DNA of 64,000 bases from Aggregatilineales bacterium. Its GTDB lineage: Bacteria > Chloroflexota > Anaerolineae > Aggregatilineales > Ch27. The stretch is taken from positions 85,683-149,682 of the forward strand of contig JARKNX010000133.1 of NCBI GenBank assembly GCA_029976025.1, in the 5' to 3' direction. The position numbers and the translations under genes are program-made. The notes beneath the pieces are model-generated. The model had not been told where the DNA came from. It made no database searches and worked only from the letters and a program-made list of their open reading frames with translations. Below are positions 3 to 41,153 of this stretch, piece by piece (positions within the stretch are counted from its first letter, which is position 1; each line of letters starts with the position of its first letter).

Positions 3-2762
3 GCCATCAAGGCACAGCTTTCCGGCGAGGCGCTGGAGGCTACTCCTGGCGTATTCCATGCCATTTATCGGCTGGGGCCGATCGGGCTGTTTGTAATTGC
101 TCTGGGGCTGTTCACGGTGATCCGCCAGCCCCGGATATCGGCGTCCCTGTTCATCCTCTTTCAGGCTATCCTGTTCAGCAGCTACCTGGCCACGCCCGAA
201 GCGACGCTCGGCGGTTACATTCTGGCGGTGATGTTTTCTCTGCTGGGCTATTTTGTCGGCAAATCGCGCCTGGTCCTCTGGCCCTGGGTATCCTACCGGC
301 TCTGGCGGCAATACAGCCGGTTGAAGCGCGATCTGGCCGCCGACGCGCCAGTTGATGAGGCGGCTGCCGGCGTCCTGACCGAGCTGGATAAAGAGATTGC
401 CGCGCCGCTCTATGGTTACGAAGCGGTCTTGCACACCCTGGCTGAAGCTGGCCTCAGCCTGCACAGCTTCAACGCCCGGACAGCCAGCGCTGCCCACCAG
501 ATGGACTACCGGATAATCGTTCAGTCGATAGGGATACGGCGGCTGGAAACGGCGGCTGATCTGCAGGATGTGTACGACATTGTGGAGCGTTATGACCTGG
601 TTTCATATGAGAACCGGGCTTCGCTCCGCATCTTCATCCAGAAGCTGGCGCACAGCGCCACCGCGATTGAACGCCTGCGCACCCGCGCCCAGTTCCTCTG
701 GCAGCTTGGCGAGATCATCCAGCCCGATTGGGAGGAGCAGCAATCCCGCTGGCCCCGCCAGCATATCGCCATTCAGGTGATGATTCAGCAAATCTACGCG
801 TCGGTGAATTTGAATTACTCCGATGTGGCTCAGTACTGGCTGGCCTACCGCAACCTGGAAGCCACAGTCGAGCAGATTAACGCCATCGCCGAACGGCACG
901 TAGAAACCGGGGAATGCGCGCGCCAGGGGGTCCACCTGACCCTGCAGCAGCTTTCTCAGACACAGCAGCGGATACGGGAGATCGAGACGGAATTTTCGCA
1001 CCTTCCGGAGTATGAGAAGGGGTGGCATCACGCGCTTCTGGATACCGATTTCGATGCGACGCAGTTGTTGACGGTGGACTACCGCGTGCGTGAGGAGATG
1101 GTCCGGGCTGAGATCGAGCGCCTGCAACTGCTGGGCCGAAGCCAGCCGGCGAGCTGGCTGGCGATCAGCAATACCGGCGAAGAGGTCGTCGATCAGATGA
1201 ATCCCTGGTGCGTCATGACCCACCAGTTAATGCAGCGGCTGGAGATGGTGCGACAGATGGACGATCGTTACGTCGCCTGGGCCGAGACAGAACTGAGCAG
1301 CATCCTGGCCGGGCTGCGGACGGTCAAAGATATTGCCGATCTGGATCAGCGCCTGTCGGTGCTGACCATGTCCGATGACAGCTTCGGCCCGATGGTGGAC
1401 GGCACGATTGAGGCGCTGCAGGAGATCGGCCAGCAGACCCGCGCCGCGCTGGCATCGATGGAGGGCACCCATCACCGCCGCCAGCTTTTGATCGAGGCGG
1501 AAGATCGCAGCAATGCGCTCCGCAACTGGCTGCGCACCCGTTATGGCCGGGCGCGGACGCGCCAGTGGGCCGATTATGTGCAAAAGTCAATCAGCGAGGT
1601 GCTGGACGATCACCTCAACCACCAGCGCGAGCAGGAACAGGCGACTTACCGCAACCCCTATATTGTCGGCAACCCGATCACGCCCAAGAGCGCCACGTTA
1701 TTCAAAGGGCGCACCGACCTCGCCCGGCAGCTTGCCGACTTCCTCAACCGTGACAACCAGCCCACCATCGTCCTGTATGGCCCGCGCCGAATGGGCAAAA
1801 CCAGCTTTCTGCTCCAGCTTCAGAATCTGCTGCGCGGCCTGAATGACGACTATATCCCGGTTTTCCTGAATGGGCAGGATGTCGGCGTTTGCCAGAATGA
1901 CGCCAGCTTCTTTTACTTCCTGGCGCGGGCCATCCATACCCAGCTCACCCAGCGCACCGGCCAGCAGATCGAGCGGCCAACCCGCGAAGACCTCGAATCC
2001 GAGCCGTACAGCATCATTCGTGAGTGGATTGATGATAAGGTTGCGCCGCTCCTCAACGAGCGTCAGATGCTTCTGATCACGATTGATGAGTTCGAGAAAA
2101 TCGGGGAGGCCATCCATAAGGGCGAGCTTTCGGAGAAAATTCTGGATTTCCTGCGACATACCATGCAGCATGGTGAGCACATGGTCTTCCTGTTCTGCGG
2201 GGTCGAGACGCTGGACGCGCTGGGGCCGAACGCGGCTTCTTACTTCATCAGCGTGCAGACGTTCGAGATCAGCTATCTCAGCCAGGATGCCGCGGAAGAG
2301 CTGATCCGCTCCCCGAATCCCGCCGCCGGACAGATGCCGGACTACGACGATGACGTGGTGGCGGAGATCATCCGGCTGACACACTGCCAGCCGTACCTCG
2401 TCCAGGCCATCTGCTCGCGCATTGTGGATATCGCCAATGAGGAGCACCTGAGGTGTGTCCAGATGGACACGCTGGAGAAAGGGCTGTCCAGCCTCTTCGA
2501 CACCAACCGGCTGTATTTTCAATATCTGTGGAACGATGCCGGGGAGTACGGGCGGACTATCCTCACAACCCTGGCCGGCGGGCCGGCCTCGCTGGAGCCG
2601 GGACAGCTCGCCCACCCGGAAGGGAAAGGGCTGCTGCTGCGCCGGGTGATCTGCCGCCGTCCGGACGGTATGCACGAGATTGAGATTCCGCTCATGCAGC
2701 ACTGGGTGGCCCTGCAAACGGAAGAGGGGGAAGACACGCTTCCTGTTCTGGTCCACCCCTGA
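3..2762 (+). CDS. Membrane-anchored coiled-coil STAND-like P-loop ATPase (5' end probably left of the window)
   Basis: The ORF-track call 117..2762 starts at a GTG with no SD. The same frame is stop-free back to nt 3 and encodes a further hydrophobic helix (GPIGLFVIALGLFTV), so the true start is probably upstream of the window. TM helices: SLFILFQAILFSSYL and GGYILAVMFSLLGYFV. About 450 aa of helical, coiled-coil-like sequence follows. Then NPYIVGNPI...FKGR, Walker A GPRRMGKTS (nt 1779-1805) and Walker B LLITIDEFE (D-E codons 2085-2090). The HCQPYLVQ helix plus winged-helix-like tail matches the layout of ORC/Cdc6-like (ATPase_2/AAA_16 type) STAND NTPases. Confidence 0.75.
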   Translation, partial: AIKAQLSGEALEATPGVFHAIYRLGPIGLFVIALGLFTVIRQPRISASLFILFQAILFSSYLATPEATLGGYILAVMFSLLGYFVGKSRLVLWPWVSYRLWRQYSRLKRDLAADAPVDEAAAGVLTELDKEIAAPLYGYEAVLHTLAEAGLSLHSFNARTASAAHQMDYRIIVQSIGIRRLETAADLQDVYDIVERYDLVSYENRASLRIFIQKLAHSATAIERLRTRAQFLWQLGEIIQPDWEEQQSRWPRQHIAIQVMIQQIYASVNLNYSDVAQYWLAYRNLEATVEQINAIAERHVETGECARQGVHLTLQQLSQTQQRIREIETEFSHLPEYEKGWHHALLDTDFDATQLLTVDYRVREEMVRAEIERLQLLGRSQPASWLAISNTGEEVVDQMNPWCVMTHQLMQRLEMVRQMDDRYVAWAETELSSILAGLRTVKDIADLDQRLSVLTMSDDSFGPMVDGTIEALQEIGQQTRAALASMEGTHHRRQLLIEAEDRSNALRNWLRTRYGRARTRQWADYVQKSISEVLDDHLNHQREQEQATYRNPYIVGNPITPKSATLFKGRTDLARQLADFLNRDNQPTIVLYGPRRMGKTSFLLQLQNLLRGLNDDYIPVFLNGQDVGVCQNDASFFYFLARAIHTQLTQRTGQQIERPTREDLESEPYSIIREWIDDKVAPLLNERQMLLITIDEFEKIGEAIHKGELSEKILDFLRHTMQHGEHMVFLFCGVETLDALGPNAASYFISVQTFEISYLSQDAAEELIRSPNPAAGQMPDYDDDVVAEIIRLTHCQPYLVQAICSRIVDIANEEHLRCVQMDTLEKGLSSLFDTNRLYFQYLWNDAGEYGRTILTTLAGGPASLEPGQLAHPEGKGLLLRRVICRRPDGMHEIEIPLMQHWVALQTEEGEDTLPVLVHP

Positions 2763-2910: not shown

Positions 2911-5900
2911 GTGAGCCAGGATCGAAAGAGTTTCGTCAGCTATAGCGATAGAGATGCCGCCTTTGCCCTGCGACTGGCCGTCGATCTGGCCCAACGGGGC
3001 GTCCCTCTGTGGATGGACCGGCTGAATCTGCTCCCCGGTGAGGATTTCCGGGCCGCCGCCGCGGCCGCTCTGGATGCCCCTCTGGCCTTCCTGGCGGTTA
3101 TATCGCCGGCTTATCTGGAATCTGGCTATTGCCGGGCGGAGCTGGACCGGGCGCTGTCGCTCGGGGTGCCGATCTGCGTTGCTTTGCTCCAGCCCGTGCC
3201 TGAGGCGGACCTGCCTGTGCCGCTCGCTGAGGGGGCTTACGGGGACTTCCGGGCCTGGCCCGATGATGGCGAGGGCTACTGGCAGGGTGTCAACACGCTC
3301 GTCGATCTGTTCTATCGGGAGGCCGGCGTCCCGGTCGCTCCGGAGGCCGGGTCAGAAGCGCGCTACCTGCTGGGGGTAATCCGCGATCTGGGGGCGCGCC
3401 TTGCGATACCTCAGATAGAGGATGCCGGCGATCAGCGCCCTGATCCAGATGGCGCTTTCAACTGGCTGGCGCAGGGGTGCTTCGGGGTTTTTGACCCCCG
3501 GGATATGTCCCCGGCGCTCCCGCAGTTCCGCCCGCACATCGCCCGCTACGAGGGCCTTCAGTCTGTCGCTGAACAATATCCCCGCTTTGTCCTGATCGGC
3601 GATGGCGGCTCCGGCAAGACCACGCTGTTGAGCGGGCTGGCTCTGCAAGCTGCGCGCGCGCGGCTGGCCTGGCCCGCGTCCGCGCCGCTGCCCCTCATTC
3701 TGCCGCTGGCCGCCTGGAGCGGAGATGTTGCGCTGCCTTCTTTCATTCGCCAGGCTGCCGAAGCGGCGGGGTGGCCGTCCGACAGCGATCCGCTGGCGGC
3801 GCTGAGCCAGGGTGAGGCTGCCCTGTATCTGGATGGCCTGAGCGAGACTGAGGATGCTGTCGAGAAGGCCGAGCGGCTGCGCGAATGGCTCCAGTCGGAT
3901 GCCGCGCCGCAGCGGCTGATCGTGACTTGCGACCGGGAGGCGTACCTGCGCGGCCTGGTTCTGGGCCTGCCGGCGGTGCAGATTATCCCCTGGGACGCCG
4001 CCCGCGCTGAGGCGTATCTGGCGGCAGCGGTGAACGCGGATTTCGCACCGGAGCCGGGAGACGCCCTGCCCGCCGGGCGCGCGCCGATCCACCCGTCCGC
4101 CGGCCTGCGCGATCTGCTGCGCCACCCGCTCCTGCTGAATGTGCTGGCCCGCGCCGGGCAGCCCGCTGGCGGCCCCGAGGGCAGCGCAGGAATGCTCCTG
4201 CGGCGGCTGACGGAGCATCGATGGGCGGAAGCGGAAGGCCGGGCGACGGTCTCCTGGACGACGCTGGAAGCCGGACTGGCTGAGCTGGCTTTTCAGGCCA
4301 CGCTGGACGCCATGCCGGTATATCTGCCGGAGGATTACGCCGTCCGTTATCTGGGCGACGCCGCTTTGCTTGACCCGGCCAACAGCGGCGCCTTTCTGGA
4401 GATGGCCGGGGGAGCGGTGCGGTTTGTGCATCAGGCGGTGCGCGACTATTTCGCCGCCCGTTATATTGTGCAGGCCGGGGCGCTGTGCGACTACCTCGCC
4501 CTGCCGCAGTTCGACCCCGGCGAACAGCGCATCCCGGGCCAGTGGGATGCCGCCGTGATCCTCCTCAGCGGCCTGGCCCCCGACCCGGAGGCCATTGTCT
4601 ACGAAGTGGCCCGTGTAGACCCGTTCCTGGCCTTTGAGTGCGCGTACAGCGGCCTGGACCTGTCCCGCGATAGTCTGGACCGGCTGGCCCACCATCTGCT
4701 CAGCTCCTCGTTTGTCCACCGCCAGATCGGGCGCGTGGCAGCCGTCCGCCTGATCCCGGCTGATCTGGCCGAATCGGCCATGCCTACCCTGCTGGAAACT
4801 ATGCGAAACGGCGCGTGGGATGCCCGCTGGGCCGCCGCCGACACGCTGTTCGAGATGAACCCGCCGCTGCTGCCGGGCGTCCTGGAGGCGCTGGCGGACC
4901 TTGATTCTCCGCTCAACACGGCTGCCGGGGCGGCGCTGCGCAAGATCGGCCAGGCGGCCCTGCCGACCCTGCTCATGCTGATGTACGCGGATGATGCTGC
5001 GATCCGGCGGGGGGCGGCCCGCGCCCTCGGTCAATTTGGCGATCCGGCGGCCGTCCCGGTCCTGGTGGAGGCGCTCCAGGACGCCGACCCGGCGGTGGTG
5101 ATAGAGGCCGCCGGCGCGCTGGGCTGGATACGCGATTCTGCCGCCACGCTGTGGCTGCCCCGCCTGCTGCACCATGACCACCCGGATATCCGGCAGGCCG
5201 CCATCCGGGCGCTGGGCTGGATGCGCGCCGCCGCCGTGGATAGTATGCTGGATGCCGCTGTTAATGCCCCCGATCTGGAGACGCGCACCCAGGTAATTGA
5301 AGCGCTCAAAGATACCTCTGATCGGGCGGTACAGGATCGGCTGTTGCACGCCACGACCAGCGACGACGGCGAGATTCGCGCCGCCGCCCTGGAAGCCTTG
5401 GAGAACGCGGAGGGCCCTGTGTTTGTGAAACGTCTCATTGATGCCCTGGAAGATACAGCCTATTCCCGCTGGCGTGGCAAAAGCATCGGCAGCATTGCCG
5501 CTGAAGTCCTTAAAGCGCGGGGGTACGATGCTGCCGCGCTGGCCGCCGAGGGTGAGGAGGACGCCCCGACTGCCCCGGCCGCTGAAGAGGCTGAGCATAT
5601 CCCCCCCCGATTCGAGACAGAAGCGCCCGCTGGCCGGAATTCCGCCTCCACAGCCCGGAGCCGCCTGAAGCGGATCACGGCTCAGGACGCGGCGCTGGCC
5701 GCCGCCCCTGCGGCATCGCTGGAGGAAGTTCAGGAGGGGACGCCCGCTCCGCTGCCGACTGAAGTTGCTCCGCTTGACACCCCGCCCCGGCCAGCTTCCC
5801 GCCAGTTCGAGCTGGCGGACGATCTGACCAGCCTGGACTGGAGCCGCCGGAGCGATGCCGTGCTGGCGCTGCAGGGTCAGGAGCCTGAGATAGCCATCCC

Positions 5901-7260
5901 GCGCCTGATACAGGCGCTTAAGGATGAGGATAGCCAGGTCCGGCTGGCTGCGGTGGATGTGCTGCAAACCTTCAACACCGAGGACGCGCTCAGGGGCCTG
6001 TTCATGGCGCTCGGCAACGATGAATATCTGGTGTGCGACGCGGCGTCGGACGCTTTCGCCCGGATTGGCCGGCGGACCGTCCCTTATCTGATCAGGGCGT
6101 TGTCCAGCCCGCAGGTCAACATGCGGGCGGGGGCTGTGGAAGCGCTGGGCAAGATTGCCGATCCGGCGGCTATGGCGGACCTGACCCGGCTCCTTTCCGA
6201 TACAGAGCGGCCCTGGCTGTTTGATCTGTGCGTGGGCGATCTGGCGGCTAAAGCTCTGGAATCGATCGGCACGCGCGAGGCGCTCCAGATCGTGCTGCAA
6301 TGGCGGGCGGAAAACGCCCCCGACCCCCGGACGCAGGCTCTCAGTCAGGCGCCGGTCCTGTCCGAAGATTTGGCCGCCCCGGCGGAGAGCGCCGCCGAAG
6401 ATGATGCGCCATCTGCGCCGGAAGCCGGGGCGTCAGCCCCCGCAACGGCGACCGTGCTCCCCGGCGAGCTGACCCCGCCGCGCGGCATGCCGGAAGACCC
6501 GGGCAACCGGCAGATTGTCCTCGAAGTGCTGGATAACCTGCGCCACCCGGAATGGGAGGTCCGGCAGGCGGCGGCCAGGACGCTGCGCGAATATGCCAAG
6601 GCCCTCAAGGGGGCGGATGACCCGACTATTCTGGGGCGCTTGCAGGACGCTCTGGAAGACCCCTCCTGGGAAGTGCGCTGGGCCGTGGTGGAGGCGCTGG
6701 CCTGGATCGCCAACCCGGTCACCGTCCCGGCTATCGCCAGACGTCTGGAGGATAAGAACTGGATTGTGCGCGTCGCCGCGATCCGGGCGCTGACGGAGAT
6801 CCGGGATATCAGCGCCGCCCCGGCGGTGATCGGGGCGCTGAAAGATCGCAAGGGGCTGGTGCGGGAGGCCGCTGCTGAAGCTCTGGGCGAGCTGGGTGTT
6901 CCGGCGGCGGTGAATCCGCTGATCGAGCTGCTGCAAGATTCTGAGACGCTGGTCCGCCTGGCGGCCATTTACGCCCTGGGCAGGCTGCGGGCGCGGGCGG
7001 CGGTGCGGCAGGTGATGACCGCCCTGCGCGATGAGGACGCCAACATCCGGCTGGCGGCGGCGGTCGCGCTCGGCAAGATCGGGGATCCTCTGGCGATCAG
7101 CCGGCTGATTGAAGCCCTGGAGGATACGGGCAGCCCGTCGTGGGAGGAACAGCGGGTGTGTGACGCCGCCGCCGGGGCGCTGGAAGATATTGGCACACCA
7201 GAGGCGCTGGACGCCGCAACGCAGTGGAGGTCCGCGCAGGCGCCAGGGGTAGCAAACTGA
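2911..7260 (+). CDS. TIR-NACHT-HEAT repeat protein (NLR-like STAND NTPase, 1449 aa)
   Basis: GTG start with a GGAG SD. N-terminal TIR: SFVSYSDRDAAFALRLAVDL...FLAVISPAYLESGYCRAELDRAL, with the conserved Glu codon at 3139-3141. NACHT-type P-loop: Walker A GDGGSGKTT (3598-3624) and Walker B AALYLDGLSE (3820-3846). The C-terminal ~800 aa hold three arrays of PBS-lyase/EZ-type HEAT repeats, for example IRRGAARALGQFGDPAAVPVLVEALQDADPAVVIEAAGALGWIRD. Acidic Ala/Pro/Glu-rich linkers separate the arrays. Confidence 0.9.
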   Translation: MSQDRKSFVSYSDRDAAFALRLAVDLAQRGVPLWMDRLNLLPGEDFRAAAAAALDAPLAFLAVISPAYLESGYCRAELDRALSLGVPICVALLQPVPEADLPVPLAEGAYGDFRAWPDDGEGYWQGVNTLVDLFYREAGVPVAPEAGSEARYLLGVIRDLGARLAIPQIEDAGDQRPDPDGAFNWLAQGCFGVFDPRDMSPALPQFRPHIARYEGLQSVAEQYPRFVLIGDGGSGKTTLLSGLALQAARARLAWPASAPLPLILPLAAWSGDVALPSFIRQAAEAAGWPSDSDPLAALSQGEAALYLDGLSETEDAVEKAERLREWLQSDAAPQRLIVTCDREAYLRGLVLGLPAVQIIPWDAARAEAYLAAAVNADFAPEPGDALPAGRAPIHPSAGLRDLLRHPLLLNVLARAGQPAGGPEGSAGMLLRRLTEHRWAEAEGRATVSWTTLEAGLAELAFQATLDAMPVYLPEDYAVRYLGDAALLDPANSGAFLEMAGGAVRFVHQAVRDYFAARYIVQAGALCDYLALPQFDPGEQRIPGQWDAAVILLSGLAPDPEAIVYEVARVDPFLAFECAYSGLDLSRDSLDRLAHHLLSSSFVHRQIGRVAAVRLIPADLAESAMPTLLETMRNGAWDARWAAADTLFEMNPPLLPGVLEALADLDSPLNTAAGAALRKIGQAALPTLLMLMYADDAAIRRGAARALGQFGDPAAVPVLVEALQDADPAVVIEAAGALGWIRDSAATLWLPRLLHHDHPDIRQAAIRALGWMRAAAVDSMLDAAVNAPDLETRTQVIEALKDTSDRAVQDRLLHATTSDDGEIRAAALEALENAEGPVFVKRLIDALEDTAYSRWRGKSIGSIAAEVLKARGYDAAALAAEGEEDAPTAPAAEEAEHIPPRFETEAPAGRNSASTARSRLKRITAQDAALAAAPAASLEEVQEGTPAPLPTEVAPLDTPPRPASRQFELADDLTSLDWSRRSDAVLALQGQEPEIAIPRLIQALKDEDSQVRLAAVDVLQTFNTEDALRGLFMALGNDEYLVCDAASDAFARIGRRTVPYLIRALSSPQVNMRAGAVEALGKIADPAAMADLTRLLSDTERPWLFDLCVGDLAAKALESIGTREALQIVLQWRAENAPDPRTQALSQAPVLSEDLAAPAESAAEDDAPSAPEAGASAPATATVLPGELTPPRGMPEDPGNRQIVLEVLDNLRHPEWEVRQAAARTLREYAKALKGADDPTILGRLQDALEDPSWEVRWAVVEALAWIANPVTVPAIARRLEDKNWIVRVAAIRALTEIRDISAAPAVIGALKDRKGLVREAAAEALGELGVPAAVNPLIELLQDSETLVRLAAIYALGRLRARAAVRQVMTALRDEDANIRLAAAVALGKIGDPLAISRLIEALEDTGSPSWEEQRVCDAAAGALEDIGTPEALDAATQWRSAQAPGVAN

Positions 7261-7652
7261 TGCGGGTGTTTTCCTGAGGGTGAAGCAGGCGCGCCGGGAA
7301 GCTGCCGCCCGCCGGTGAAAAACAAATTAATACCTTTTTAACACCGGCAGGTGGCGGGGTATGTTATTTTAAAAGCGGAGCACTTCAACAAAGGCTGACT
7401 GCTACGGGCCATCCGTTTTCCTCTCACCTATTCCAGAGGGGGCTGTGAGTAAGGTGAAGGTGCTTCGCTATTATCTCCGAAGCGGAAAGTAGATCGGCAG
7501 GACTCCGCGCCGGGGATACCGCCTCAAGCGGGTATAGACGCTTCATTTCTTTTCATGATCTCAATTGGGGGGGTTACCCGCACAGTCGGTTCCGCGAGGC
7601 AGGGTGACGCCTAAAATCCTTTGCGCGGATAGTGCACCTTCAGGAATATGCC

Positions 7653-9209
7653 ATGCGACTATTTGTCAGCTATGCCCGTGTAGACAAACCCTACTGTATT
7701 CAGATTGTGGATACGCTGGAAGCGCACGATTCGTGGTTCGATCAGCGTCTGTATGCCGGCCAGAACTGGTGGCAGGAAATCCTCCGCCGGCTGGACTGGT
7801 GCGAGGGATTCATCTATCTGCTGTCGCCTGACTCCGTAGCCTCAGAATACTGCCGCAAGGAGTTCGAGCTGGCGCAAAGCCTGGGGCGCCCTATCTTCCC
7901 CATCCTGATCCATAAGGACCTTAATCTGCCGCCGTCGCTTGCCGAAGTCCACTATGTGGATTTCAGCGAAGGCATCACGGTCGAAGCCGTCACCGGGCTG
8001 CTGAATGCGATCACGATCGCCGAGCGGCGACGCGGCGCCGGCAGCCCGCTGCCGGTCTCGGCCATCGATGCCGAGGATGTCAAGCCTCCGACGCCCGATT
8101 CCGGTCTGGTGATCAGCGCGGCGGCTGAGGCGATGGAGAAGGGCCAGTTCGACAAGGCGGTTTTCCTGCTCAAGCAAGCCAAGGCCAACAATTTTGTCTC
8201 CCAGTTCATCAGCATTGACGCCCTGCTGCAGGAGGCACTGGCCGGTCTGGAGCGGCAGTCGTACCTGCGCGAGGCGGAGCGCGAGTACCGGCAGATTGCT
8301 GATCTGGTCAAGTTCACCCGCACGCGCCGGCTGGGTTGCGAGGCCTTCAAAGCCTTTCGGCAGGCTTTCCCCGATTACGATCCGGACAACCTGTCGGTCT
8401 ACTGCAGCGAGACGACAAATTTTTCCATATCCGCCCCGCTTGAGCGGTTTGCCCCTAAAGAGCCGCCGGCCCCCCCCGTGCCTGCGTTCCGGCTCCCCCT
8501 GCTGGAGTGGTGTCCGGTGCCGGAAGGGAATGTCCTGATCGAGGGCAACGGCAAGACCTACCCGGAGCCTAAGCTGTTTCAGGTGCCGGCTTTTGAGATC
8601 AGCAAATATCCGATCACCAACGCCCAGTATCAGGCATTTCTGGATGATCCGGAGGGGTACGCCAACCCGGCGTGGTGGGAATTTTCGCCGCTGGCGATGG
8701 AAGTGCGGGCGGAAAACGGCGAGCCGAAAGCCCCCCATTTCACGGGGGACGAGCGTCCGCGCGAGATGATCAACTGGTTCGACAGCATGGCGTTTTGTGC
8801 CTGGCTGAGCGACAAACTGGGGGCCAGGGTGACCCTGCCGCTGGTCAACCAGTGGGTGCGGGCCGCCCGCGGCGATTCTAGCTGGGACTTTCCCTGGGGG
8901 GAGCGCTTCATCCGCGAACGGTGCAATACCAGCGAGAGCAAGCTCAAGATGACTTCGCTGGTCAATCGCTACCCCGATGGCGCCAGTCCCTTCGGGGTGG
9001 TGGACATGGCCGGCAATATCTGGGAGTGGTGCCTGAACCCCAAGAATGATCTCGAAGATCAGCCGGAGATCACCAGCAGTCAGGAGCGCGCGGTGCACGG
9101 CGGGTCGTTCATCGGCCCCTCTACCCGGGCCAAGATTTCCTTCCGCTATTATCTGAATCCCAGGCTGTATTACTCCTCTATCGGCTTCCGCGTTGTCAAA
9201 CTGCCATAG
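7653..9209 (+). CDS. TIR domain / helical linker / FGE-sulfatase-fold (SUMF1-like, FGS) domain protein
   Basis: ATG at 7653 (MRLFVSYARVD...). The ORF track offers an alternative in-frame start at 7632. TIR: FVSYARVDKPYCIQIVDTLE...FIYLLSPDSVASEYCRKEFELAQSLGRPIFPILI, with the Glu codon at 7860-7862. Middle region: TPR-like helices (AMEKGQFDKAVFLLKQAKANN). From about nt 8493 the protein has FGE-sulfatase motifs: FEISKYPITNAQYQAFLDD, INWFDSMAFCAWLS, FGVVDMAGNIWEWC, RAVHGGSF...SIGFRVVK. Confidence 0.85.
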   Translation: MRLFVSYARVDKPYCIQIVDTLEAHDSWFDQRLYAGQNWWQEILRRLDWCEGFIYLLSPDSVASEYCRKEFELAQSLGRPIFPILIHKDLNLPPSLAEVHYVDFSEGITVEAVTGLLNAITIAERRRGAGSPLPVSAIDAEDVKPPTPDSGLVISAAAEAMEKGQFDKAVFLLKQAKANNFVSQFISIDALLQEALAGLERQSYLREAEREYRQIADLVKFTRTRRLGCEAFKAFRQAFPDYDPDNLSVYCSETTNFSISAPLERFAPKEPPAPPVPAFRLPLLEWCPVPEGNVLIEGNGKTYPEPKLFQVPAFEISKYPITNAQYQAFLDDPEGYANPAWWEFSPLAMEVRAENGEPKAPHFTGDERPREMINWFDSMAFCAWLSDKLGARVTLPLVNQWVRAARGDSSWDFPWGERFIRERCNTSESKLKMTSLVNRYPDGASPFGVVDMAGNIWEWCLNPKNDLEDQPEITSSQERAVHGGSFIGPSTRAKISFRYYLNPRLYYSSIGFRVVKLP

Positions 9210-33749: not shown

Positions 33750-34063
33750 GGTTGAGAAGTAGCGGAGAACAGCCGAAAAGCAGGATCAGACAGGGACGGC
33801 AGCGAAGGCGGCATGGCGCGGGGCTGGCGATAAATCGATATTTTCTCCTCCGGCCGCCGGGAAGAGGGGGCAAGATTTATATGAATCCTGCGGGACAGCG
33901 CGATAAGTGCACCAGACCATGTTACCGGCAGGATAGCGCCCTCGTCCACGCTATCTCGGCTCCGCCCGATTTAAGTAGTTCGCCATCCTCGGGTATTTTT
34001 TACCGTCTACCCGATTGAATGAGGCCAGTTTCCGCTGAATGCCAGCTAAAAACACGATAGTAG

Positions 34064-34092
34064 TTGACATGGATAAAAAGTGGGAGTATTTT
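34064..34092 (+). promoter_or_regulatory. Candidate promoter upstream of the ArsR-like regulator
   Basis: TTGACA (34064-34069), 17 nt, TATTTT (34087-34092), in a strongly AT-rich gap. Confidence 0.45.
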
Positions 34093-34094
34093 AT

Positions 34095-34122
34095 ATATGA
34101 CACATATTATTCTGTGTCATAT
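34095..34122. promoter_or_regulatory. Perfect 10-bp inverted repeat (candidate operator)
   Basis: ATATGACACA (34095-34104), 8 nt, TGTGTCATAT (34113-34122). It starts 3 nt after the candidate -10 box. Confidence 0.5.
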
Positions 34123-34244
34123 GCCGGAGAAAAGTGAATTTCCAAGTATATTTGTCTGGATTTTGATATTCACGAAACCTTATGCAATATAAGAATATGT
34201 TTTTTTCTATTTTATTGTGATCGATTGTCAAGGCGGCAATCCTC

Positions 34245-35201
34245 ATGACAAAAGCCGGGCGAAACCTCGTAATTAATATCGACGACACTTCCCTGAATGT
34301 CGAGCCGATCCTCAAGGCTCTGGCATCAGATCGGCGCATTGCCATGCTCCGTTTCCTGGGCGGCAATAGCTGCAGCATCAATGAGATCGCGGATGCGCTT
34401 GAAATACCCCCTTCAACTGCGACCATGCACATCAATGTCCTCGAAGAAGCCGGGCTGATTAGGACGGAGCTGAAGCCTGCCAGCCGCGGTTTACAGAAAA
34501 TCTGCGCCCGGGTCTACGACCAGGTTTCTATTCTTTTGCCCAGCGGTGAGCTTCCGAAGGAAAACTTCATCGACATCAGCATGCCGATCGGCGCCTACGT
34601 TGACTGCAACATAACCCCGACATGCGGTATTCTCAGCGAGGAAGGCATCATCGGGCAGCTCGATGATCCGGACACATTCTATGATCCGGAACGTGTCAAC
34701 GCGCAATTGCTGTGGTTTAAGCAGGGCTATGTCGAATACCGGTTCCCCAACCGCCTTCCCCCCAAAGCAGAATTGAAAAGTCTCCAGCTCAGCCTGGAAT
34801 TATGCTCAGAAGCGCCGTTGCACGATGACAACTGGCCCTCAGATATCACCCTGTGGATCAACGATATAGAAGTTGGAACCTGGACCAGTCCGGGTGATCT
34901 GGGGGGGACACGCGGGGTGTTGACCCCTGGCTGGTGGGAAGAATGGAATTCCCAATACGGCCTGTTGAAGATCTGGAAAATCAATGAACAGGGTACGTTC
35001 GTTGATGGCCTGCAAATCTCCGGGGTTACGATTGATAATCTCAAATTGAGATCGAGGGGGTTTATCCCGCTGCGACTCGGCGTCAAGGATGACGCGGCGA
35101 ATATCGGCGGGCTGAACATATTTGGCCGAGCTTTCGGAAACTATCCGCAGGATATTGTCATGCGGATAGTTTTTGAAGTCACGACTCCACAGCCAGACTG
35201 A
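34245..35201 (+). CDS. ArsR/SmtB-type winged-helix regulator with ~220-aa C-terminal extension
   Basis: ILKALASDRRIAMLRFLGGNSCSINEIADALEIPPSTATMHINVLEEAGLIRTEL is a classic ArsR wHTH. The C-terminal beta-rich domain is of unknown function. Confidence 0.8.
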   Translation: MTKAGRNLVINIDDTSLNVEPILKALASDRRIAMLRFLGGNSCSINEIADALEIPPSTATMHINVLEEAGLIRTELKPASRGLQKICARVYDQVSILLPSGELPKENFIDISMPIGAYVDCNITPTCGILSEEGIIGQLDDPDTFYDPERVNAQLLWFKQGYVEYRFPNRLPPKAELKSLQLSLELCSEAPLHDDNWPSDITLWINDIEVGTWTSPGDLGGTRGVLTPGWWEEWNSQYGLLKIWKINEQGTFVDGLQISGVTIDNLKLRSRGFIPLRLGVKDDAANIGGLNIFGRAFGNYPQDIVMRIVFEVTTPQPD

Positions 35202-35285
35202 ATATCAAAGGAGAAGCGCTATAGATCGAAACCAGGAAATGCCATCACGCTACGTATACGCCTGAAGAATCAAGGAGAAAGTAAG

Positions 35286-36539
35286 ATGCAACGCAAGAGT
35301 GTGCGCAATATGCTGTCAATCGCGCTGGTTATGGCGATAGCGATGCTGACTGTGCCTTTTGGCGCAGAGGCTCAAAGCCCCGTAGTCATCACTTTCTGGA
35401 ACGGATTTACCGGCCCGGATCGCCCCACCGTAGAGGCGCTTGTAGCGGAGTTCAATGCAGCCCATGCAGACATTCAGATCGATATGACGATCACGCCGTG
35501 GGATAGTCTGTACCAGACTCTGCTAGGTGCGATGTCTGCAGGAGAAGGCCCGGATCTCGTGGGATTCAACTTCAACTATGTCCTACAGTACGCTGAGAGC
35601 GGGCTGATCATGGATATTTCCGATTGGTTCGAAGAGGGCAGCAACCTGGATCTGGAGAACTGGCCGCCCGCCCTCGTCGAACGCCTGCAATACGATGGCA
35701 AATTCTATGCAGTCCCGATGAATTTCGCAACCTTGCTGATGTACTACAACCTCGACATCTTCACTGAAGTCGGGCTGGATCCGGAAAACCCGCCTGCGGA
35801 CTGGGACACCTGGATTGAGGCCCTGCGCACTATCACGGAAGCCGGGTATTACGGCATCGCCATTGGCGAACGCCAGACGATCCCCAACTGGCCTATCCTG
35901 CTCTGGGGCAATGGGGCAGACGTGATTGTGGACGGCAAATCCGGGCTTGCCACGCCTGAGGCCATTGAAGCGCTTGAGCTGTGGGGCGGCCTGGTTCGTG
36001 ACGAGGAAATCAGTCCGTTCGGCCTGACCGGCGCGGAAGCCGATCAGCTCTTCCAGAGCGGGCGCGCGGCTATGGGCATCACCGGGCCGTGGATGGTCAA
36101 CGGGTTCCTGGAGGCAGGCGTTAACTTCGACGTGACCCCCATCCCCACCGGCCCCGCAGGTCCCGTGACCCTGGCCGACTCCGTGGTGTTCGTGGTCAAC
36201 GCATCGACTACGCATGAGGAAGAAGTCAAGACGTTCCTCGATTTCTGGAATTCCTATGACGCCCAGATCACCTGGTCGGCTGGCACTGGCTTCCCGCCCG
36301 CTCGCCTGGATCTCTCGGACTCTCCTGACCTCTACGAAGCTAACCCCTGGGCGGCCAAGTTTGCGGCGGTTGTGCCTTATTCGCGCTTCTTCATGGGCGG
36401 CCAGAGGCACTACACCGAGATCGAAAACGACATCTTCGTCCCCATGATCCAGAGCATCACGCAGGGTGTCAGCAGCGTTGAAGAAGCCGCCACCAGAGCA
36501 GACGAGCAGCTCACCCGTCTCCTGGCACAGGACGATTAA
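35286..36539 (+). CDS. ABC transporter extracellular sugar-binding protein
   Basis: Signal/anchor MQRKSVRNMLSIALVMAIAMLTVPFGAEAQ. Family-1 SBP features: ITFWNGFTGPD, MYYNLDIF, GPWMVNGF. Confidence 0.85.
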   Translation: MQRKSVRNMLSIALVMAIAMLTVPFGAEAQSPVVITFWNGFTGPDRPTVEALVAEFNAAHADIQIDMTITPWDSLYQTLLGAMSAGEGPDLVGFNFNYVLQYAESGLIMDISDWFEEGSNLDLENWPPALVERLQYDGKFYAVPMNFATLLMYYNLDIFTEVGLDPENPPADWDTWIEALRTITEAGYYGIAIGERQTIPNWPILLWGNGADVIVDGKSGLATPEAIEALELWGGLVRDEEISPFGLTGAEADQLFQSGRAAMGITGPWMVNGFLEAGVNFDVTPIPTGPAGPVTLADSVVFVVNASTTHEEEVKTFLDFWNSYDAQITWSAGTGFPPARLDLSDSPDLYEANPWAAKFAAVVPYSRFFMGGQRHYTEIENDIFVPMIQSITQGVSSVEEAATRADEQLTRLLAQDD

Positions 36540-36561
36540 CGCGTTTTCCTACACTCCTATT

Positions 36562-36590
36562 GCTACGGGGGGTTACCAGCCCCCCGTAGC
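36562..36590 (+). promoter_or_regulatory. Intercistronic perfect stem-loop (no U-tract)
   Basis: GCTACGGGGGG (36562-36572) pairs perfectly with CCCCCCGTAGC (36580-36590) around loop TTACCAG. It lies between the binding-protein and permease genes, the position typical of mRNA-stabilising or attenuating hairpins in ABC operons. Confidence 0.55.
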
Positions 36591-36624
36591 TCAAAACGAA
36601 AATTAGCTACCCAGGGGCATACAC

Positions 36625-37575
36625 ATGATGGACAATATCCAGGTCCAGGCGTCTGTCTCCCAGTCGCGGAGGCTTCCACTGTCTGTTCGAATTCGGCGTG
36701 CCCTCAGCCACCCTCCAACCAGGCAGGGACTCACGTTCCTGTTCCCGAGTCTGGTCATCCTCGGTGTGTTTGTCTTCTGGCCTATCATCCAGTCTCTTTT
36801 GCTCAGCCTGCAAAGATGGCGCTTTGGTTCTTCAGAAGTCACCTGGGTCGGGCTGGATAACTACGCCCGGATGCTGGCCGATGAACGGGTCTGGGGAGCA
36901 TTACAGAATACCGTCTACTACACCCTAGTCGTTGTACCGGTCGGGCTGTTGCTATCGCTGCTTTTTGCGCTGGCCCTCAACGAGAAGTTGCGTGGACGTG
37001 TAGTCTTCCGTGCCATTTACTTCCTGCCGGTTATCGCCTCTTTTGCTATTGTGGCGATTGTGTGGCGCTTCCTGCTCAATCCGGATATTGGCTTGCTGGC
37101 TTACTGGTTCAAGCTGGTTGGCATCCCCACGCGCAACTGGCTGCGCGATGCCCGGTACGCGATGCCCGCCGTGATGATGGTCTCCATCTGGAAGAACGTT
37201 GGCTTCAATATGGTGATCTTGCTGGCTGGCCTGCAGAGCATCCCGGAAGTTTACTATGAGGCCGCCAAAGTGGATGGCGCCAACCGCTGGCGGCGCTTCA
37301 GGTCAGTTACCATGCCGCTGCTGCGCCCTACCTGGATCTTCGTCCTCATCATCTCGGTCATTAGCTCCTTCCAGGTGTTCGACCAGGTCTGGGTTATGAC
37401 TCCCCGCGGAGGCCCGCTCTTCAGCACCGAGACCATGGTGACCTACATTTACTACCAGGGCATTGAGCTGATGGATATCAGCTATGCTGCCGGCATTGGC
37501 GTTATGCTGTTTATCATCGTGTTCATCCTGACACTCATACAGCTCCGCCTCTTGCGCTTCCGCGATATGGACTAG
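36625..37575 (+). CDS. Sugar ABC transporter permease (MalF/UgpA-like)
   Basis: Six TM helices. EAA-type loop YEAAKVDGANRWRRFRSVTMPLLRP. Confidence 0.85.
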   Translation: MMDNIQVQASVSQSRRLPLSVRIRRALSHPPTRQGLTFLFPSLVILGVFVFWPIIQSLLLSLQRWRFGSSEVTWVGLDNYARMLADERVWGALQNTVYYTLVVVPVGLLLSLLFALALNEKLRGRVVFRAIYFLPVIASFAIVAIVWRFLLNPDIGLLAYWFKLVGIPTRNWLRDARYAMPAVMMVSIWKNVGFNMVILLAGLQSIPEVYYEAAKVDGANRWRRFRSVTMPLLRPTWIFVLIISVISSFQVFDQVWVMTPRGGPLFSTETMVTYIYYQGIELMDISYAAGIGVMLFIIVFILTLIQLRLLRFRDMD

Positions 37576-37591
37576 AAAGGATGATATCAGC

Positions 37592-38440: not shown

Positions 38441-38458
38441 AACTGGAGGCGTTGGCCC

Positions 38459-39412: not shown

Positions 39413-39474
39413 TTCGGAGCGGCAGGCGCCGCTCCAATTTTTATGAGCCTGTTTTTCTCTCAAGGGACAGCACT

Positions 39475-40935: not shown

Positions 40936-41102
40936 CTCGCACCCTTACACATGGCAATCGCCGCTTTGCAGATGATGGTGTCAATGGCCGTGTAGGCGTA
41001 CGCCTCTCCCTGGCGCTTGAGAACGCGAGGGCCAGGGGGAGGCCGGGATGAAGGTCTTTCCAGGTCAGACGGAGTCGCATTCCTCTTGAGAGTACCGCAA
41101 TT

Positions 41103-41125
41103 GGGGAAGGGGCGGGGATGAGGGG
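41103..41125. repeat. G-rich 23-nt motif, copy 1 (second copy at 51165-51187)
   Basis: GGGGAAGGGGCGGGGATGAGGGG here and GGGGAAGGGCCGGGGATGGAGGT at 51165-51187 are identical at 19 of 23 positions by my alignment. Both lie in 3' intergenic DNA, next to imperfect CCCTC/GAGGG-type hairpins. Confidence 0.5.
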
Positions 41126-41153
41126 AGCCGGCTGTTGCCTGGCCCCCCTCTCT

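What the first reader, a model, noticed from the sequence alone, without database searches (positions are those of the whole stretch)
2911..7260. TIR-NACHT protein whose sensor region is three HEAT arrays, the last two ending in the same signature
Seen in sequence: after the TIR and NACHT domains, the C-terminal ~800 aa form three blocks of PBS-lyase-type HEAT repeats. Acidic Ala/Pro/Glu low-complexity linkers separate them, roughly at nt 5530-5830 and 6300-6490.

Blocks 2 and 3 end with nearly the same sequence. Block 2 ends AAKALESIGTREALQIVLQWRAENAP (nt ~6253-6325). Block 3 ends AAGALEDIGTPEALDAATQWRSAQAP (nt ~7177-7245). This suggests an internal module duplication.

Inference: the ligand-recognition surface of an NLR-like protein may have been duplicated and diversified, as would be expected for a sensor under arms-race selection. 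The architecture is effector, then switch, then repeats.
Basis: partly seen in the sequence, partly recalled or inferred. Interest (0 to 1): 0.7.

Follow-up and report, generated by a model that had tools for sequence, protein, structure and literature searches.

The report
TIR–NACHT–triple-HEAT protein with conserved TIR partner
This is a real NLR-like protein (TIR, NACHT, three separately capped HEAT arrays), but the arrays are old, fixed and well conserved instead of fast-evolving, and the gene forms a conserved two-gene operon with a second TIR protein carrying a lectin-like FGE domain in Anaerolineae bacteria.

Summary
ORF 2911-7260 encodes a 1449-aa protein with TIR, a NACHT-type NTPase and three PBS-type HEAT arrays. 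The arrays are separated by two disordered Ala/Pro/Glu linkers. Arrays 2 and 3 end in the same cap (16 of 26 residues identical), and array 2 aligns without gaps to the last five repeats of array 3.

- In the family consensus all three arrays end in this cap. The window's array-1 cap is a degenerate copy.
- The triple layout is ancient: 38 of 151 family sequences surveyed (50%-identity cluster representatives plus the query, P0002 and P0003) have the same B1-B2-B3 order.
- Orthologous arrays are much more alike than paralogous ones.
- The arrays are no more variable than TIR or NACHT (pairwise identity 0.35-0.40 against 0.32-0.42) and have no repeat-number changes. Only the linkers vary.

In 36 of those the genes overlap by 4 nt. 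The two proteins co-diverge (r = 0.97).

The family is almost confined to Chloroflexota (Anaerolineae) and is syntenic in about 37 species.

Verdict: a new variant of a known kind, of moderate interest.

The parts
3..2762 (+). Upstream gene, cut at its 5' end by the window edge: transmembrane/coiled-coil region plus an ATPase_2/AAA_16 NTPase. Orthologues are about 1080 aa and carry an N-terminal TIR.
   Evidence: Frame 3 is open from nt 3. The L018 1078-aa TIR-ATPase aligns from its residue 203 to window nt 69-2720 at 47.5% identity. Pfam gives ATPase_2 at 2.4e-8. The gene lies upstream of the NLR-like gene only in the closest relatives L005, L011, L018 and L019. The L018 ORF has TIR_2 at its N-terminus.
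2911..7260 (+). TIR-NACHT-3xHEAT gene (1449 aa).
   Evidence: ORF, Pfam, and an identical protein P0001 in the NCBI-derived collection.
2932..3264 (+). TIR domain (aa 8-118). The candidate catalytic Glu E77 is encoded at nt 3139-3141.
   Evidence: TIR_2 scores 66 bits against a cutoff of 28. E77 is invariant in A3 and at least 90% conserved in A1 and A4. It aligns with the Glu of the WC..EL motif in the Cat1 NADase and TLR1. The family profile hits the bacterial TIR NADases Cat1, AbTIR and PdTIR.
3556..4695 (+). NACHT-type NOD module (aa 216-595). Walker A GDGGSGKT is at nt 3598-3621, Walker B LYLDGLSE is around nt 3820-3846, and the winged-helix motif is VRFVHQAVRDYFAA.
   Evidence: Pfam NACHT scores 26.2 bits against GA 26.7. 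The L018 orthologue scores 28.2. The PDB profile search finds NACHT NLRs as the only matches that extend beyond the P-loop. The NLRP9 alignment covers Walker B and the WHD motif. The AF2 model has pLDDT 90. Foldseek returns RPP1, NLRC4, NAIP, NLRP9, NOD2 and NLRP3 at E 2e-9 to 1e-6.
4696..5559 (+). HEAT array 1 (aa 596-883, about 9 repeats), with a degenerate cap at aa ~842-883 (nt 5434-5559).
   Evidence: Pfam HEAT_2 and HEAT_PBS. AF2 helices and pLDDT above 90. 40% identical to array 1 of P0002. The family consensus cap is clear at this position.
5560..5832 (+). Linker 1 (aa 884-974). It is disordered and Ala/Pro/Glu-rich, and contains a short conserved helix at aa ~911-930 (nt 5641-5700; family motif SA..AK.RL).
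   Evidence: Composition. pLDDT below 50 except for the helix at model residues 316-335. Column occupancy 0.55 and identity 0.20 across the family. The motif appears in the consensus.
5833..6321 (+). HEAT array 2 (aa 975-1137, 5 repeats), with its cap at aa ~1091-1137 (nt 6181-6321).
   Evidence: blastp against the tail of array 3: 39.9% identity, no gaps, E=8e-27. 45% identical to the orthologous array of P0002. AF2 model.
6322..6492 (+). Linker 2 (aa 1138-1194), disordered and Ala/Pro/Glu-rich.
   Evidence: Column occupancy 0.41 and identity 0.18.
6493..7245 (+). HEAT array 3 (aa 1195-1445, 7 repeats), with its cap at aa ~1399-1445 (nt 7105-7245). It is the most conserved array.
   Evidence: 55-56% identical to array 3 of P0002. 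Family pairwise identity 0.396. AF2 pLDDT is about 97-98 through most of the array. A single array superposes on an artificial alphaRep (4xl5_C) with TM 0.83 and 40% identity.
7261..7652 (.). 392-nt intergenic spacer. It is unusually long: 36 of 48 related loci have a 4-nt stop/start overlap instead.
   Evidence: One promoter-like site at 7338-7365 and weak terminator-like hairpins. No Rfam match.
7653..9209 (+). Partner gene (518 aa from the ATG at 7653). It has TIR (aa ~4-107, conserved Glu E70), a conserved helical middle region (aa ~166-250) and an FGE-sulfatase-like lectin-fold domain (aa ~309-516, nt 8577-9200) without the FGE catalytic Cys pair.
   Evidence: Pfam TIR_2 1.3e-20 and FGE-sulfatase 3.3e-33. 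The start is inferred from orthologues that begin MRLFVSYARVD. Downstream of the NLR-like gene in 48 of 49 loci. Pairwise identity is 0.73 for TIR and 0.68 for the FGE-like domain; E70 is at least 95% conserved; the tail GGSFIGPSTRAK has no Cys. PDB matches are ToxD, EgtB, TvpA and SUMF2.

Best explanation
The gene encodes the NLR-like half of a conserved two-gene TIR system in filamentous Chloroflexota (class Anaerolineae).

Shown:
- TIR domain with an invariant catalytic-position Glu.
- NACHT-type STAND NTPase with intact Walker A and B motifs and the winged-helix His motif.
- Three independent, capped, alphaRep-like HEAT solenoids joined by disordered tethers.
- A second protein that is co-transcribed and usually translationally coupled: TIR, a helical region and a non-catalytic FGE/C-type-lectin-fold domain. 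It co-diverges with the NLR-like protein.

Inferred mechanism:
1. In the resting state the NACHT module is ADP-bound and closed.
2. A conserved target binds. It could be a host protein being guarded, a conserved invader component, or a glycan or protein recognised by the partner's lectin-like domain. Binding involves the HEAT arrays and/or the partner.
3. Nucleotide exchange and NACHT oligomerisation follow.
4. The TIR domains are brought together, probably including the partner's TIR as a heterotypic member of the assembly.
5. The clustered TIRs form active NAD+-cleaving sites. These either deplete NAD+ or produce a signalling nucleotide, leading to growth arrest or death of the affected cell in the filament.

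The three arrays are fixed, individually conserved binding platforms, each with its own specificity. They are not a rapidly diversifying surface.
For: Domain identities.

Catalytic and motif conservation: E77, G235, K236 and D308 are invariant in A3 (27 sequences down to 21% identity). G235 and D308 are also invariant, and E77 and K236 at least 90% conserved, in A1; all four are at least 90% conserved in A4. The partner's E70 is at least 95% conserved.

Three separate solenoids with disordered tethers: (pLDDT above 90 in the arrays, below 50 in the linkers, pTM 0.45). The arrays resemble protein-binding alphaRep scaffolds.

Array-specific conservation.

Operon: 48 of 49 loci have the partner, and 36 of 48 have a 4-nt overlap. 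Pairwise identities of the two proteins correlate at r=0.97. The pair is also found in L001, where the other neighbours differ.

Literature: TIR effectors and HEAT or FGS 'antigen receptor-type' sensors are recognised parts of bacterial NACHT proteins, some of which protect against phage (10.1101/2022.07.19.500537). FGS lectin-fold domains are proposed to bind invader molecules directly (PMC7159879 and PMC8195603).

Established knowledge: TIR NADase activity requires self-association, and NLR oligomerisation provides induced proximity.
Against: - There are no functional data. NADase activity, nucleotide dependence, oligomerisation, the ligand and any TIR-TIR heteromer are all inferred.
- The window protein's own Pfam NACHT score is 0.5 bits under threshold, and its Walker B is DGLSE, not the canonical D[GAS]hDE.
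- The locus is not in a recognisable defence island. Neighbours are a GH3 glucosidase, a GNAT acetyltransferase, RmuC, a PBP, a kinase and a sigma factor. No PADLOC system model matches it.
- In about 37 species the operon sits in a fixed syntenic position. Together with the conserved sensors, this is atypical of phage-defence genes and fits a non-immune role equally well.
- TIR-FGE-like homologues at 43-49% identity also occur alone, so the partner need not act through the NLR-like protein.
Confidence: 0.5

Rival explanations
1. Helper/sensor split. The partner's lectin-like FGE domain is the real sensor. The TIR-NACHT-HEAT protein is a helper or amplifier, and its HEAT arrays serve autoinhibition and scaffolding, for example by docking the partner or the conserved linker-1 helix, not ligand capture.
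For: - The NLR-like gene almost never occurs without the partner (48 of 49), but the partner type can stand alone.
- The partner is more conserved than the NLR-like protein (0.61 against 0.43 mean identity).
- FGS domains are proposed direct binders of invader molecules.
- A conserved short helix sits inside linker 1.
- The arrays are conserved in the way expected of intramolecular or partner-binding surfaces.
Against: - The FGE-like domain is also highly conserved (0.68) and has no DGR or template repeat nearby, so it shows no sign of tracking variable ligands either.
- About 850 aa in three individually conserved arrays is a lot for mere autoinhibition.
- No interaction data exist.
Confidence: 0.25
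2. Not immunity. The operon is a lineage-specific housekeeping or developmental signalling module of filamentous Anaerolineae that monitors an endogenous, conserved molecule. Its TIR domains act as scaffolds or as regulated NAD+/nucleotide signalling enzymes, for example in filament-level cell-fate or stress control.
For: - The operon sits in a fixed syntenic position in about 37 species.
- The two genes co-diverge in a way consistent with vertical descent.
- The sensor arrays are conserved and show no repeat-number variation.
- The neighbours are ordinary chromosomal genes.
- No PADLOC system matches.
- Large STAND surveys find defence and non-defence clades interspersed (PMC13581612).
Against: - TIR plus STAND plus repeat or FGS architectures are overwhelmingly associated with conflict systems in the literature.
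- The closest relatives place the pair inside a run of up to four TIR/NTPase genes. The Phototrophicaceae-type loci add another NACHT gene. This looks like a conflict-gene cluster.
- The catalytic Glu is retained in both TIRs.
Confidence: 0.2
3. One reading: a recently duplicated, rapidly diversifying ligand-recognition surface under arms-race selection.
For: - Caps occur inside the protein, and array 2 resembles the tail of array 3, which shows that module duplication happened at some time.
- The C-terminal regions of family members differ in array number: one, two or three arrays.
- Array 1 is the most divergent part between the two major clades.
Against: - Orthologous arrays score far above paralogous arrays.
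- 38 of 151 family sequences surveyed share the same B1-B2-B3 order with full-length matches.
- Array identity is equal to or higher than that of NACHT, and occupancy is 0.99.
- The near-identical allele has no changes in the arrays.
- An array is as similar to a consensus-designed alphaRep (40%) as array 2 is to array 3, so the 40% figure does not indicate recency.
Confidence: 0.05

Closest known systems
Bacterial NACHT (bNACHT) NLR-related proteins (Kibby et al., 10.1101/2022.07.19.500537)
   Same: Tripartite layout with an N-terminal effector (TIR is a listed type), a central NACHT module and a C-terminal 'antigen receptor-type' repeat sensor (HEAT is a listed type). Walker A and B motifs and the WHD His motif are present, and the fold matches NACHT NLRs.
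   Different: - The sensor is three separately capped arrays on disordered tethers, not one continuous array.
- The protein is obligately paired with a second TIR protein.
- Walker B is DGL[S/N]E.
- The gene is conserved and syntenic, not located in a defence island.
- No antiphage test exists for this clade.
STAND/NTPase-FGS lectin-fold sensor systems (Kaur et al. 2020, 2021: PMC7159879, PMC8195603; DGR-targeted CLec sensors: PMC10907252)
   Same: An FGE-sulfatase (FGS) C-type-lectin-fold domain sits at the C-terminus of a conflict-type protein. TIR is the associated effector. The systems are enriched in multicellular or filamentous bacteria.
   Different: - Here the FGS domain is fused directly to TIR on a separate polypeptide, not to the STAND NTPase.
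- No adaptor (EAD or bDLD) domain pairs were found.
- There is no DGR, reverse transcriptase or template repeat, and the FGS domain is conserved (0.68 identity) instead of hypervariable.
Plant TIR-NLRs and paired TNLs (e.g. RPP1, Roq1; RRS1/RPS4)
   Same: TIR, then NOD, then a repeat sensor. RPP1 is the top structural match across TIR plus NOD. Two adjacent TIR-containing genes are expected to act together. The mechanism would be induced-proximity TIR NADase activity.
   Different: - The NOD is NACHT-type, not NB-ARC.
- The repeats are HEAT, not LRR.
- The partner has no NOD at all.
- The genes are co-directional and overlapping, not head-to-head.
- The resemblance is analogy only, with no evidence of common descent of the pairing.
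alphaRep / PBS-lyase-type HEAT repeat proteins
   Same: 31-residue HEAT_PBS repeats. A single array superposes on alphaRep bGFP-A (4xl5_C) with TM 0.83, rmsd 3.3 Å and 40% identity. Arrays end in dedicated capping units.
   Different: - These are natural arrays embedded three times in an NLR-like protein.
- The cap has a ~12-residue loop insertion and a terminal Trp-containing helix (IGT.EA...WR) specific to this NACHT-HEAT family.
- There is no link to phycobiliprotein lyase function.

Membership tests
TIR domain (Pfam TIR_2, PF13676) | Profile match above the curated threshold | tested here: met
   66.2 bits against a cutoff of 28, aa 8-118. The family profile hits solved bacterial and plant TIRs.
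TIR NADase | Conserved catalytic Glu in the [WY]C..E motif | tested here: met
   E77 is invariant in A3 and at least 90% conserved in A1 and A4. It aligns with the Glu of WC..EL in Cat1 and TLR1. That this position is the catalytic one rests on established knowledge.
TIR NADase | NAD+ cleavage activity | not testable with these tools
   Requires an enzyme assay.
NACHT clade of STAND NTPases | Pfam NACHT (PF05729) at or above the gathering score | tested here: inconclusive
   The window protein scores 26.2 bits against 26.7. The L018 orthologue scores 28.2 and L032 scores 25.7. PF05729 is precomputed for P0002 and P0003.
NACHT clade of STAND NTPases | Walker A GxxxxGK[ST] and the Walker B D[GAS]hDE signature (Kibby et al.) | tested here: inconclusive
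   Walker A GDGGSGKT is present, and G235, K236 and D308 are invariant or nearly so. Walker B is D-G-L-S-E (family D-G-L-x-E/N-E), so the small residue and the second acidic residue are kept but the first acidic residue is replaced.
NACHT clade of STAND NTPases | NBD-HD1-WHD-HD2 fold with the WHD His motif (F.H...QE[FY].AA) | tested here: met
   The AF2 model has pLDDT 90. After RPP1, the Foldseek top hits are NLRC4, NAIP, NLRP9, NOD2 and NLRP3 at probability 1.0. VRFVHQAVRDYFAA aligns to LAFIHTCIQEFCAA of NLRP9.
HEAT_PBS / HEAT_2 repeats | Profile match and alpha-solenoid fold | tested here: met
   HEAT_2 1.3e-92 and HEAT_PBS 9e-30. Helical hairpin arrays with pLDDT above 90. alphaRep match with TM 0.83.
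Antiphage bNACHT / Avs defence systems | Match to a curated defence-system model, or location among defence genes | tested here: not met
   PADLOC gives only partial domain-level hits (HEAT-ARM_XIII, TIR fragments) and no Avs or bNACHT system model. The neighbours are housekeeping genes. The position is syntenic in about 37 species.
Antiphage bNACHT / Avs defence systems | Protection against phage, or activation by a phage protein | not testable with these tools
   Requires experiments.
DGR-diversified FGS/CLec sensors | Variable region in the FGS C-terminus with a template repeat and reverse transcriptase nearby; hypervariability among relatives | tested here: not met
   No repeat of the partner's 3' 600 nt occurs anywhere in the window. 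FGE-like domain pairwise identity is 0.68.
Formylglycine-generating enzyme (catalytic FGE) | Paired catalytic cysteines in the C-terminal GGS..C....C segment | tested here: not met
   The window partner has GGSFIGPSTRAK with no Cys. Most orthologues have a single Cys in the last 70 aa. The best PDB relatives are non-FGE members of the fold: ToxD, EgtB, TvpA and SUMF2.

The most novel reading that the evidence does not exclude
The pair is a previously undescribed, vertically inherited 'paired-TIR' NLR system of filamentous Anaerolineae. It would be a bacterial analogue of plant sensor/helper TNL pairs.

A NACHT switch carrying three distinct, conserved protein-binding HEAT modules would work with a translationally coupled TIR-lectin protein. 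The two would assemble a heteromeric TIR enzyme in response to a conserved cue, either a guarded host component or a conserved glycan or protein.

It would combine both known classes of bacterial 'antigen receptor' domain, repeats and FGS, in one system without hypervariation.
Probability: 0.3. Interest if true: 0.65.

Novelty: new variant of a known kind. Interest (0 to 1): 0.45.

Why it matters
Bacterial NLR-like proteins are usually discussed as fast-evolving, horizontally mobile phage sensors. This clade is different.
- Its sensor is modular (three capped arrays on flexible tethers), deeply conserved and fixed in repeat number.
- It is tied to a second TIR protein carrying a lectin-fold domain.
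- It occupies a stable chromosomal position across dozens of Anaerolineae species.

If the two TIRs form a heteromeric enzyme, this would be a simple bacterial model for paired-NLR logic and for 'guard'-type sensing of a conserved target.

The result also warns that repeat duplication within an NLR sensor is not by itself evidence of an arms race.

Tried and rejected
- **Self-blastp of the whole protein** returned only the identity hit, so I compared the blocks pairwise instead.
- **The look-up of encoding contigs** found no record for the window protein or for P0001, so the source organism is inferred only from relatives.
- **Word-index homologue searches** were swamped by low-complexity and HEAT words. 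The full-length query gave 2 true relatives. The aa 1-600 query gave only one weak hit and missed P0002. The exhaustive representative search solved this.
- **The first genome scan**, with a single protein, found nothing. The 38-sequence alignment had no stretch conserved enough to search with. An 8-sequence alignment worked.
I rebuilt the alignments from full-length proteins returned by the protein searches.
- **DGR hypothesis for the FGE-like domain** was rejected: no template repeat and no hypervariability.
- **Catalytic FGE** was rejected: no Cys pair.
- **The 881-aa ATPase as a complete gene** was rejected: the ORF is open to the window edge.
- **ATPase adjacency as mere synteny** was rejected: the downstream SH3 and GH3 genes are not conserved in any related locus, while the ATPase is.
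- **A shared SH3_3 neighbour in L099** was rejected as coincidence: only weak domain-level similarity.
- **My first reverse-linkage script** picked up upstream TIR domains as partner starts. I corrected it.
- **Supplementary tables of the 2026 STAND survey** are not held, so I could not check whether this clade is catalogued there.
- **dN/dS** was not attempted. Relatives are 45% identical or less, so synonymous sites are saturated, and the only close allele has 2 differences.

Full report
**1. The observation**

ORF 2911..7260 (+, GTG start) encodes 1449 aa.

Pfam results:
- TIR_2 at aa 8-118: E=4.9e-18, 66 bits against a cutoff of 28.
- NACHT at aa 227-343: 26.2 bits, just under the 26.7 cutoff.
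- HEAT_2 (E=1.3e-92, ten stretches) and HEAT_PBS (E=9e-30).

The two quoted strings are real. They lie at aa 1112-1137 (nt 6244-6321) and aa 1420-1445 (nt 7168-7245), with starts about 9 nt from the quoted positions. They share 16 of 26 residues.

The two linkers are 46-54% Ala+Pro+Glu.

An AlphaFold2 model of aa 596-1449 has mean pLDDT 85.
- It shows three confidently folded helical solenoids with pLDDT above 90.
- The solenoids are separated by segments with pLDDT below 50, at protein aa ~886-909, 932-961 and 1145-1195.
- pTM is 0.45, so the arrays have no fixed mutual orientation.
- Each array ends in a unit with a ~12-residue loop insertion followed by two helices. This unit is the 'cap'.

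**2. Is the shared ending more than chance, and is it a duplication?**

Array 2 (aa 976-1137) aligns end to end and without gaps to the last 163 residues of array 3 (aa 1283-1445). Identity is 39.9% and E=8e-27. The next-best register scores 27 bits against 89.

Array 1 also aligns to array 3 in terminal register, and it ends in a weaker copy of the cap: LIDALEDTAYSRW...AAEVLKARG.

In the 38%-identical homologue P0002 all three arrays end in ...G..EA....WR. The consensus of 38 three-array relatives shows the same cap at all three ends. So the signature is not special to arrays 2 and 3. The window's array-1 copy has simply decayed.

Many single-array family members of about 800-870 aa carry this cap at their extreme C-terminus. 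Caps inside the protein therefore mark the ends of once-independent capped modules, and module accretion is a fair inference.

One caveat applies. A single array is 40% identical to a consensus-designed alphaRep (4xl5_C, TM 0.83). That equals the identity between array 2 and array 3, so percent identity alone says nothing about when the duplication happened.

**3. Age and variability**

An exhaustive phmmer search with aa 1-600 found 243 cluster representatives at E<=1e-30. Nearly all match across the whole TIR-NACHT region.

I built an HMM for each array and classified 151 family sequences (148 cluster representatives from the top 150 hits, plus the query, P0002 and P0003).
- 38 have B1-B2-B3, each array matching its own model almost full length.
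- 12 have B1-B3.
- The rest have one or two arrays or other C-termini.

Between the window protein and P0002, orthologous arrays score 446, 342 and 637. Paralogous pairs score 125-276.

Mean pairwise identity across the 38 three-array members:

| Region | Identity | Column occupancy |
|---|---|---|
| TIR | 0.415 | 0.95 |
| NBD | 0.343 | 0.96 |
| Helical/WH | 0.315 | 0.99 |
| Array 1 | 0.345 | 0.99 |
| Array 2 | 0.365 | 0.99 |
| Array 3 | 0.396 | 0.99 |
| Linker 1 | 0.197 | 0.55 |
| Linker 2 | 0.183 | 0.41 |

The one near-identical allele, P0012, differs at T451M and Y480C, both outside the arrays.

The triple array is therefore ancient, fixed in repeat number and under purifying selection that is specific to each array.

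**4. TIR and NACHT membership**

A profile built from 27 N-terminal sequences was searched against the PDB.
- Its TIR part hits bacterial TIR NADases (Cat1, AbTIR, PdTIR), plant Roq1 and MyD88.
- In the NTPase part, the only matches that extend beyond the P-loop are NACHT NLRs: NLRC4 over profile positions 192-367, plus NLRP2, NLRP5 and NLRP9.

The AF2 model of aa 1-600 has pLDDT 90 and pTM 0.90. By Foldseek it matches the plant TIR-NLR RPP1 across TIR plus NOD. After that it matches almost only NACHT NLRs: NLRC4, NAIP, NLRP9, NOD2 and NLRP3, at E 2e-9 to 1e-6.

The NLRP9 alignment pairs LYLDGLSE with FILDGMEE (Walker B). It also pairs VRFVHQAVRDYFAA with LAFIHTCIQEFCAA, the winged-helix His motif. 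Against the D[GAS]hDE signature given by Kibby et al., the window has DGLSE, so one acidic residue is replaced.

E77, G235, K236 and D308 are invariant in the 27-sequence alignment A3 and invariant or at least 90% conserved in A1 and A4. E77 aligns with the Glu of WC..EL in Cat1 and TLR1.

**5.

ORF 7632..9209 has TIR_2 (1.3e-20) and FGE-sulfatase (3.3e-33) domains. Its likely true start is the ATG at 7653.

On the contig of P0002, the same kind of gene follows the NLR-like gene 71 nt downstream, while the other neighbours differ. The two partner proteins are 57% identical.

A genome scan returned 78 loci. Almost all are from Chloroflexota, class Anaerolineae: Anaerolineaceae, Phototrophicaceae, Aggregatilineales and Ardenticatenia.

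Of 49 loci with an intact full-length gene and at least 1.7 kb downstream, 48 carry the partner on the same strand. In 36 of these the stop and start codons overlap by 4 nt. The window's 392-nt spacer is at the long end of the range.

Partner conservation:
- Pairwise identity is 0.73 for TIR, 0.63 for the helical middle region and 0.68 for the FGE-like domain.
- The TIR Glu (E70) is at least 95% conserved.
- Pairwise identities of the partner and the NLR-like protein correlate at r=0.97.

The FGE-like domain lacks the catalytic Cys pair: the window has GGSFIGPSTRAK. Its best PDB relatives are ToxD, EgtB, the DGR target TvpA, and SUMF2.

There is no template repeat in the window and no hypervariability, so it is not a DGR target.

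The linkage is asymmetric. In partner-anchored metagenome loci with at least 4.3 kb upstream, 9 of 19 have the NLR-like gene. Four partners at 43-49% identity stand alone among unrelated genes.

**6. Wider context**

The window's downstream neighbours are ordinary chromosomal genes: an SH3_3 protein, a GH3 glucosidase, a GNAT acetyltransferase, RmuC, DUF554, a class A PBP, a Ser/Thr kinase, a response regulator and an ECF sigma factor. PADLOC has no system-level match.

In about 37 loci of the Phototrophicaceae/Aggregatilineales type, both flanks are syntenic at the same offsets.
- Upstream are Liv-type ABC transporter genes.
- Downstream are a conserved 169-aa protein, a very conserved 805-aa NACHT protein (79-99% identity in the Phototrophicaceae-type loci, 51-58% in four more distant ones) and a GSDH gene.

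In the window's own subclade (L005, L011, L018, L019) the upstream '881-aa ATPase' is conserved, while the downstream genes are not.
- That ORF is open to the window's first bases.
- Its L018 orthologue is a 1078-aa TIR-TM-ATPase_2 protein.
- In L018 it is preceded by a 677-aa TIR-AAA protein.

The constant core is therefore the pair, and extra TIR/STAND genes vary by clade.

**7. Mechanism**

*Shown:* the domain identities, the conserved catalytic and NTPase residues, three tethered capped solenoids, a translationally coupled and co-diverging TIR-lectin partner, and the lineage restriction with synteny.

*Inferred:* an ADP/ATP-switched NACHT oligomeriser is released by binding of a conserved target to the arrays and/or the partner. 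It clusters its own TIR domains, and probably the partner's, into an active NADase. That leads to NAD+ depletion or nucleotide signalling.

The last is contradicted by the data.

**8. Comparison with known systems and novelty**

TIR effectors and HEAT or FGS sensors are catalogued components of bacterial NACHT proteins. FGS lectin-fold sensors, often DGR-diversified, are described in STAND and ternary conflict systems. FGE-sulfatase sensors appear in the 2026 STAND survey.

I found no description of a TIR-NACHT protein with three capped HEAT arrays, obligately coupled to a TIR-FGE-like protein, in the papers searched. The survey's supplementary tables were not available.

I rate it a new variant of a known kind, of moderate interest.

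Noticed in passing
window 3-2762 (+); L018 293-5635: The upstream '881-aa ATPase' ORF runs off the window's left edge. Its orthologues (L018, L011, L019) are about 1080 aa with an N-terminal TIR, and they are preceded by a 677-aa TIR-AAA protein. In this subclade the locus is therefore a run of up to four TIR-domain genes.
   Followed up: partly
L032 11703-14749 (and 41 other loci): In the Phototrophicaceae-type loci the pair is followed by a conserved 169-aa protein with no Pfam match and an 805-aa NACHT protein. The NACHT protein is 79-99% identical across the Phototrophicaceae-type loci (51-58% in four more distant ones), far more conserved than the TIR-NACHT-HEAT gene. Neither gene is present in the window.
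   Followed up: partly
window 5641-5700 (aa ~911-930): Disordered linker 1 contains a short predicted helix. It coincides with a motif (SA..AK.RL) conserved across three-array family members, and could be a docking or autoinhibitory peptide.
   Followed up: no
window 7261-7652: The spacer between the two genes is 392 nt here, whereas 36 of 48 related loci have a 4-nt overlap. It holds a promoter-like site (7338-7365) and weak terminator-like hairpins, and has no Rfam match. The two genes may be transcriptionally uncoupled in this genome.
   Followed up: partly
L089, L093, L099, L104 (metagenome loci): TIR-FGE-like proteins 43-49% identical to the partner occur as stand-alone genes next to unrelated genes (glycosyl hydrolases, Prim-Pol, DUF427). 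The partner type can therefore exist without the NLR-like gene.
   Followed up: partly
window 34001-42000: GC content drops to 0.52-0.59, against about 0.65 in the rest of the window. This may be a horizontally acquired segment.
   Followed up: no
L080 6001-6525 (Candidatus Jordarchaeia MAG); L081 (Planctomycetia); L027 (Moduliflexus): HEAT-array-only or NACHT-HEAT relatives without the TIR N-terminus turn up outside Chloroflexota. They include a ~170-aa stretch 51% identical in an Asgard archaeon MAG. L027 lacks the partner gene.
   Followed up: no
L028-L073 NLR-like proteins, aa ~600-880: In the Phototrophicaceae-type clade, arrays 2 and 3 are still recognised at the same positions. Array 1 has diverged below the two-sequence HMM, although Pfam still sees Arm/HEAT there. 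Between the major clades, array 1 is the least conserved array.
   Followed up: partly
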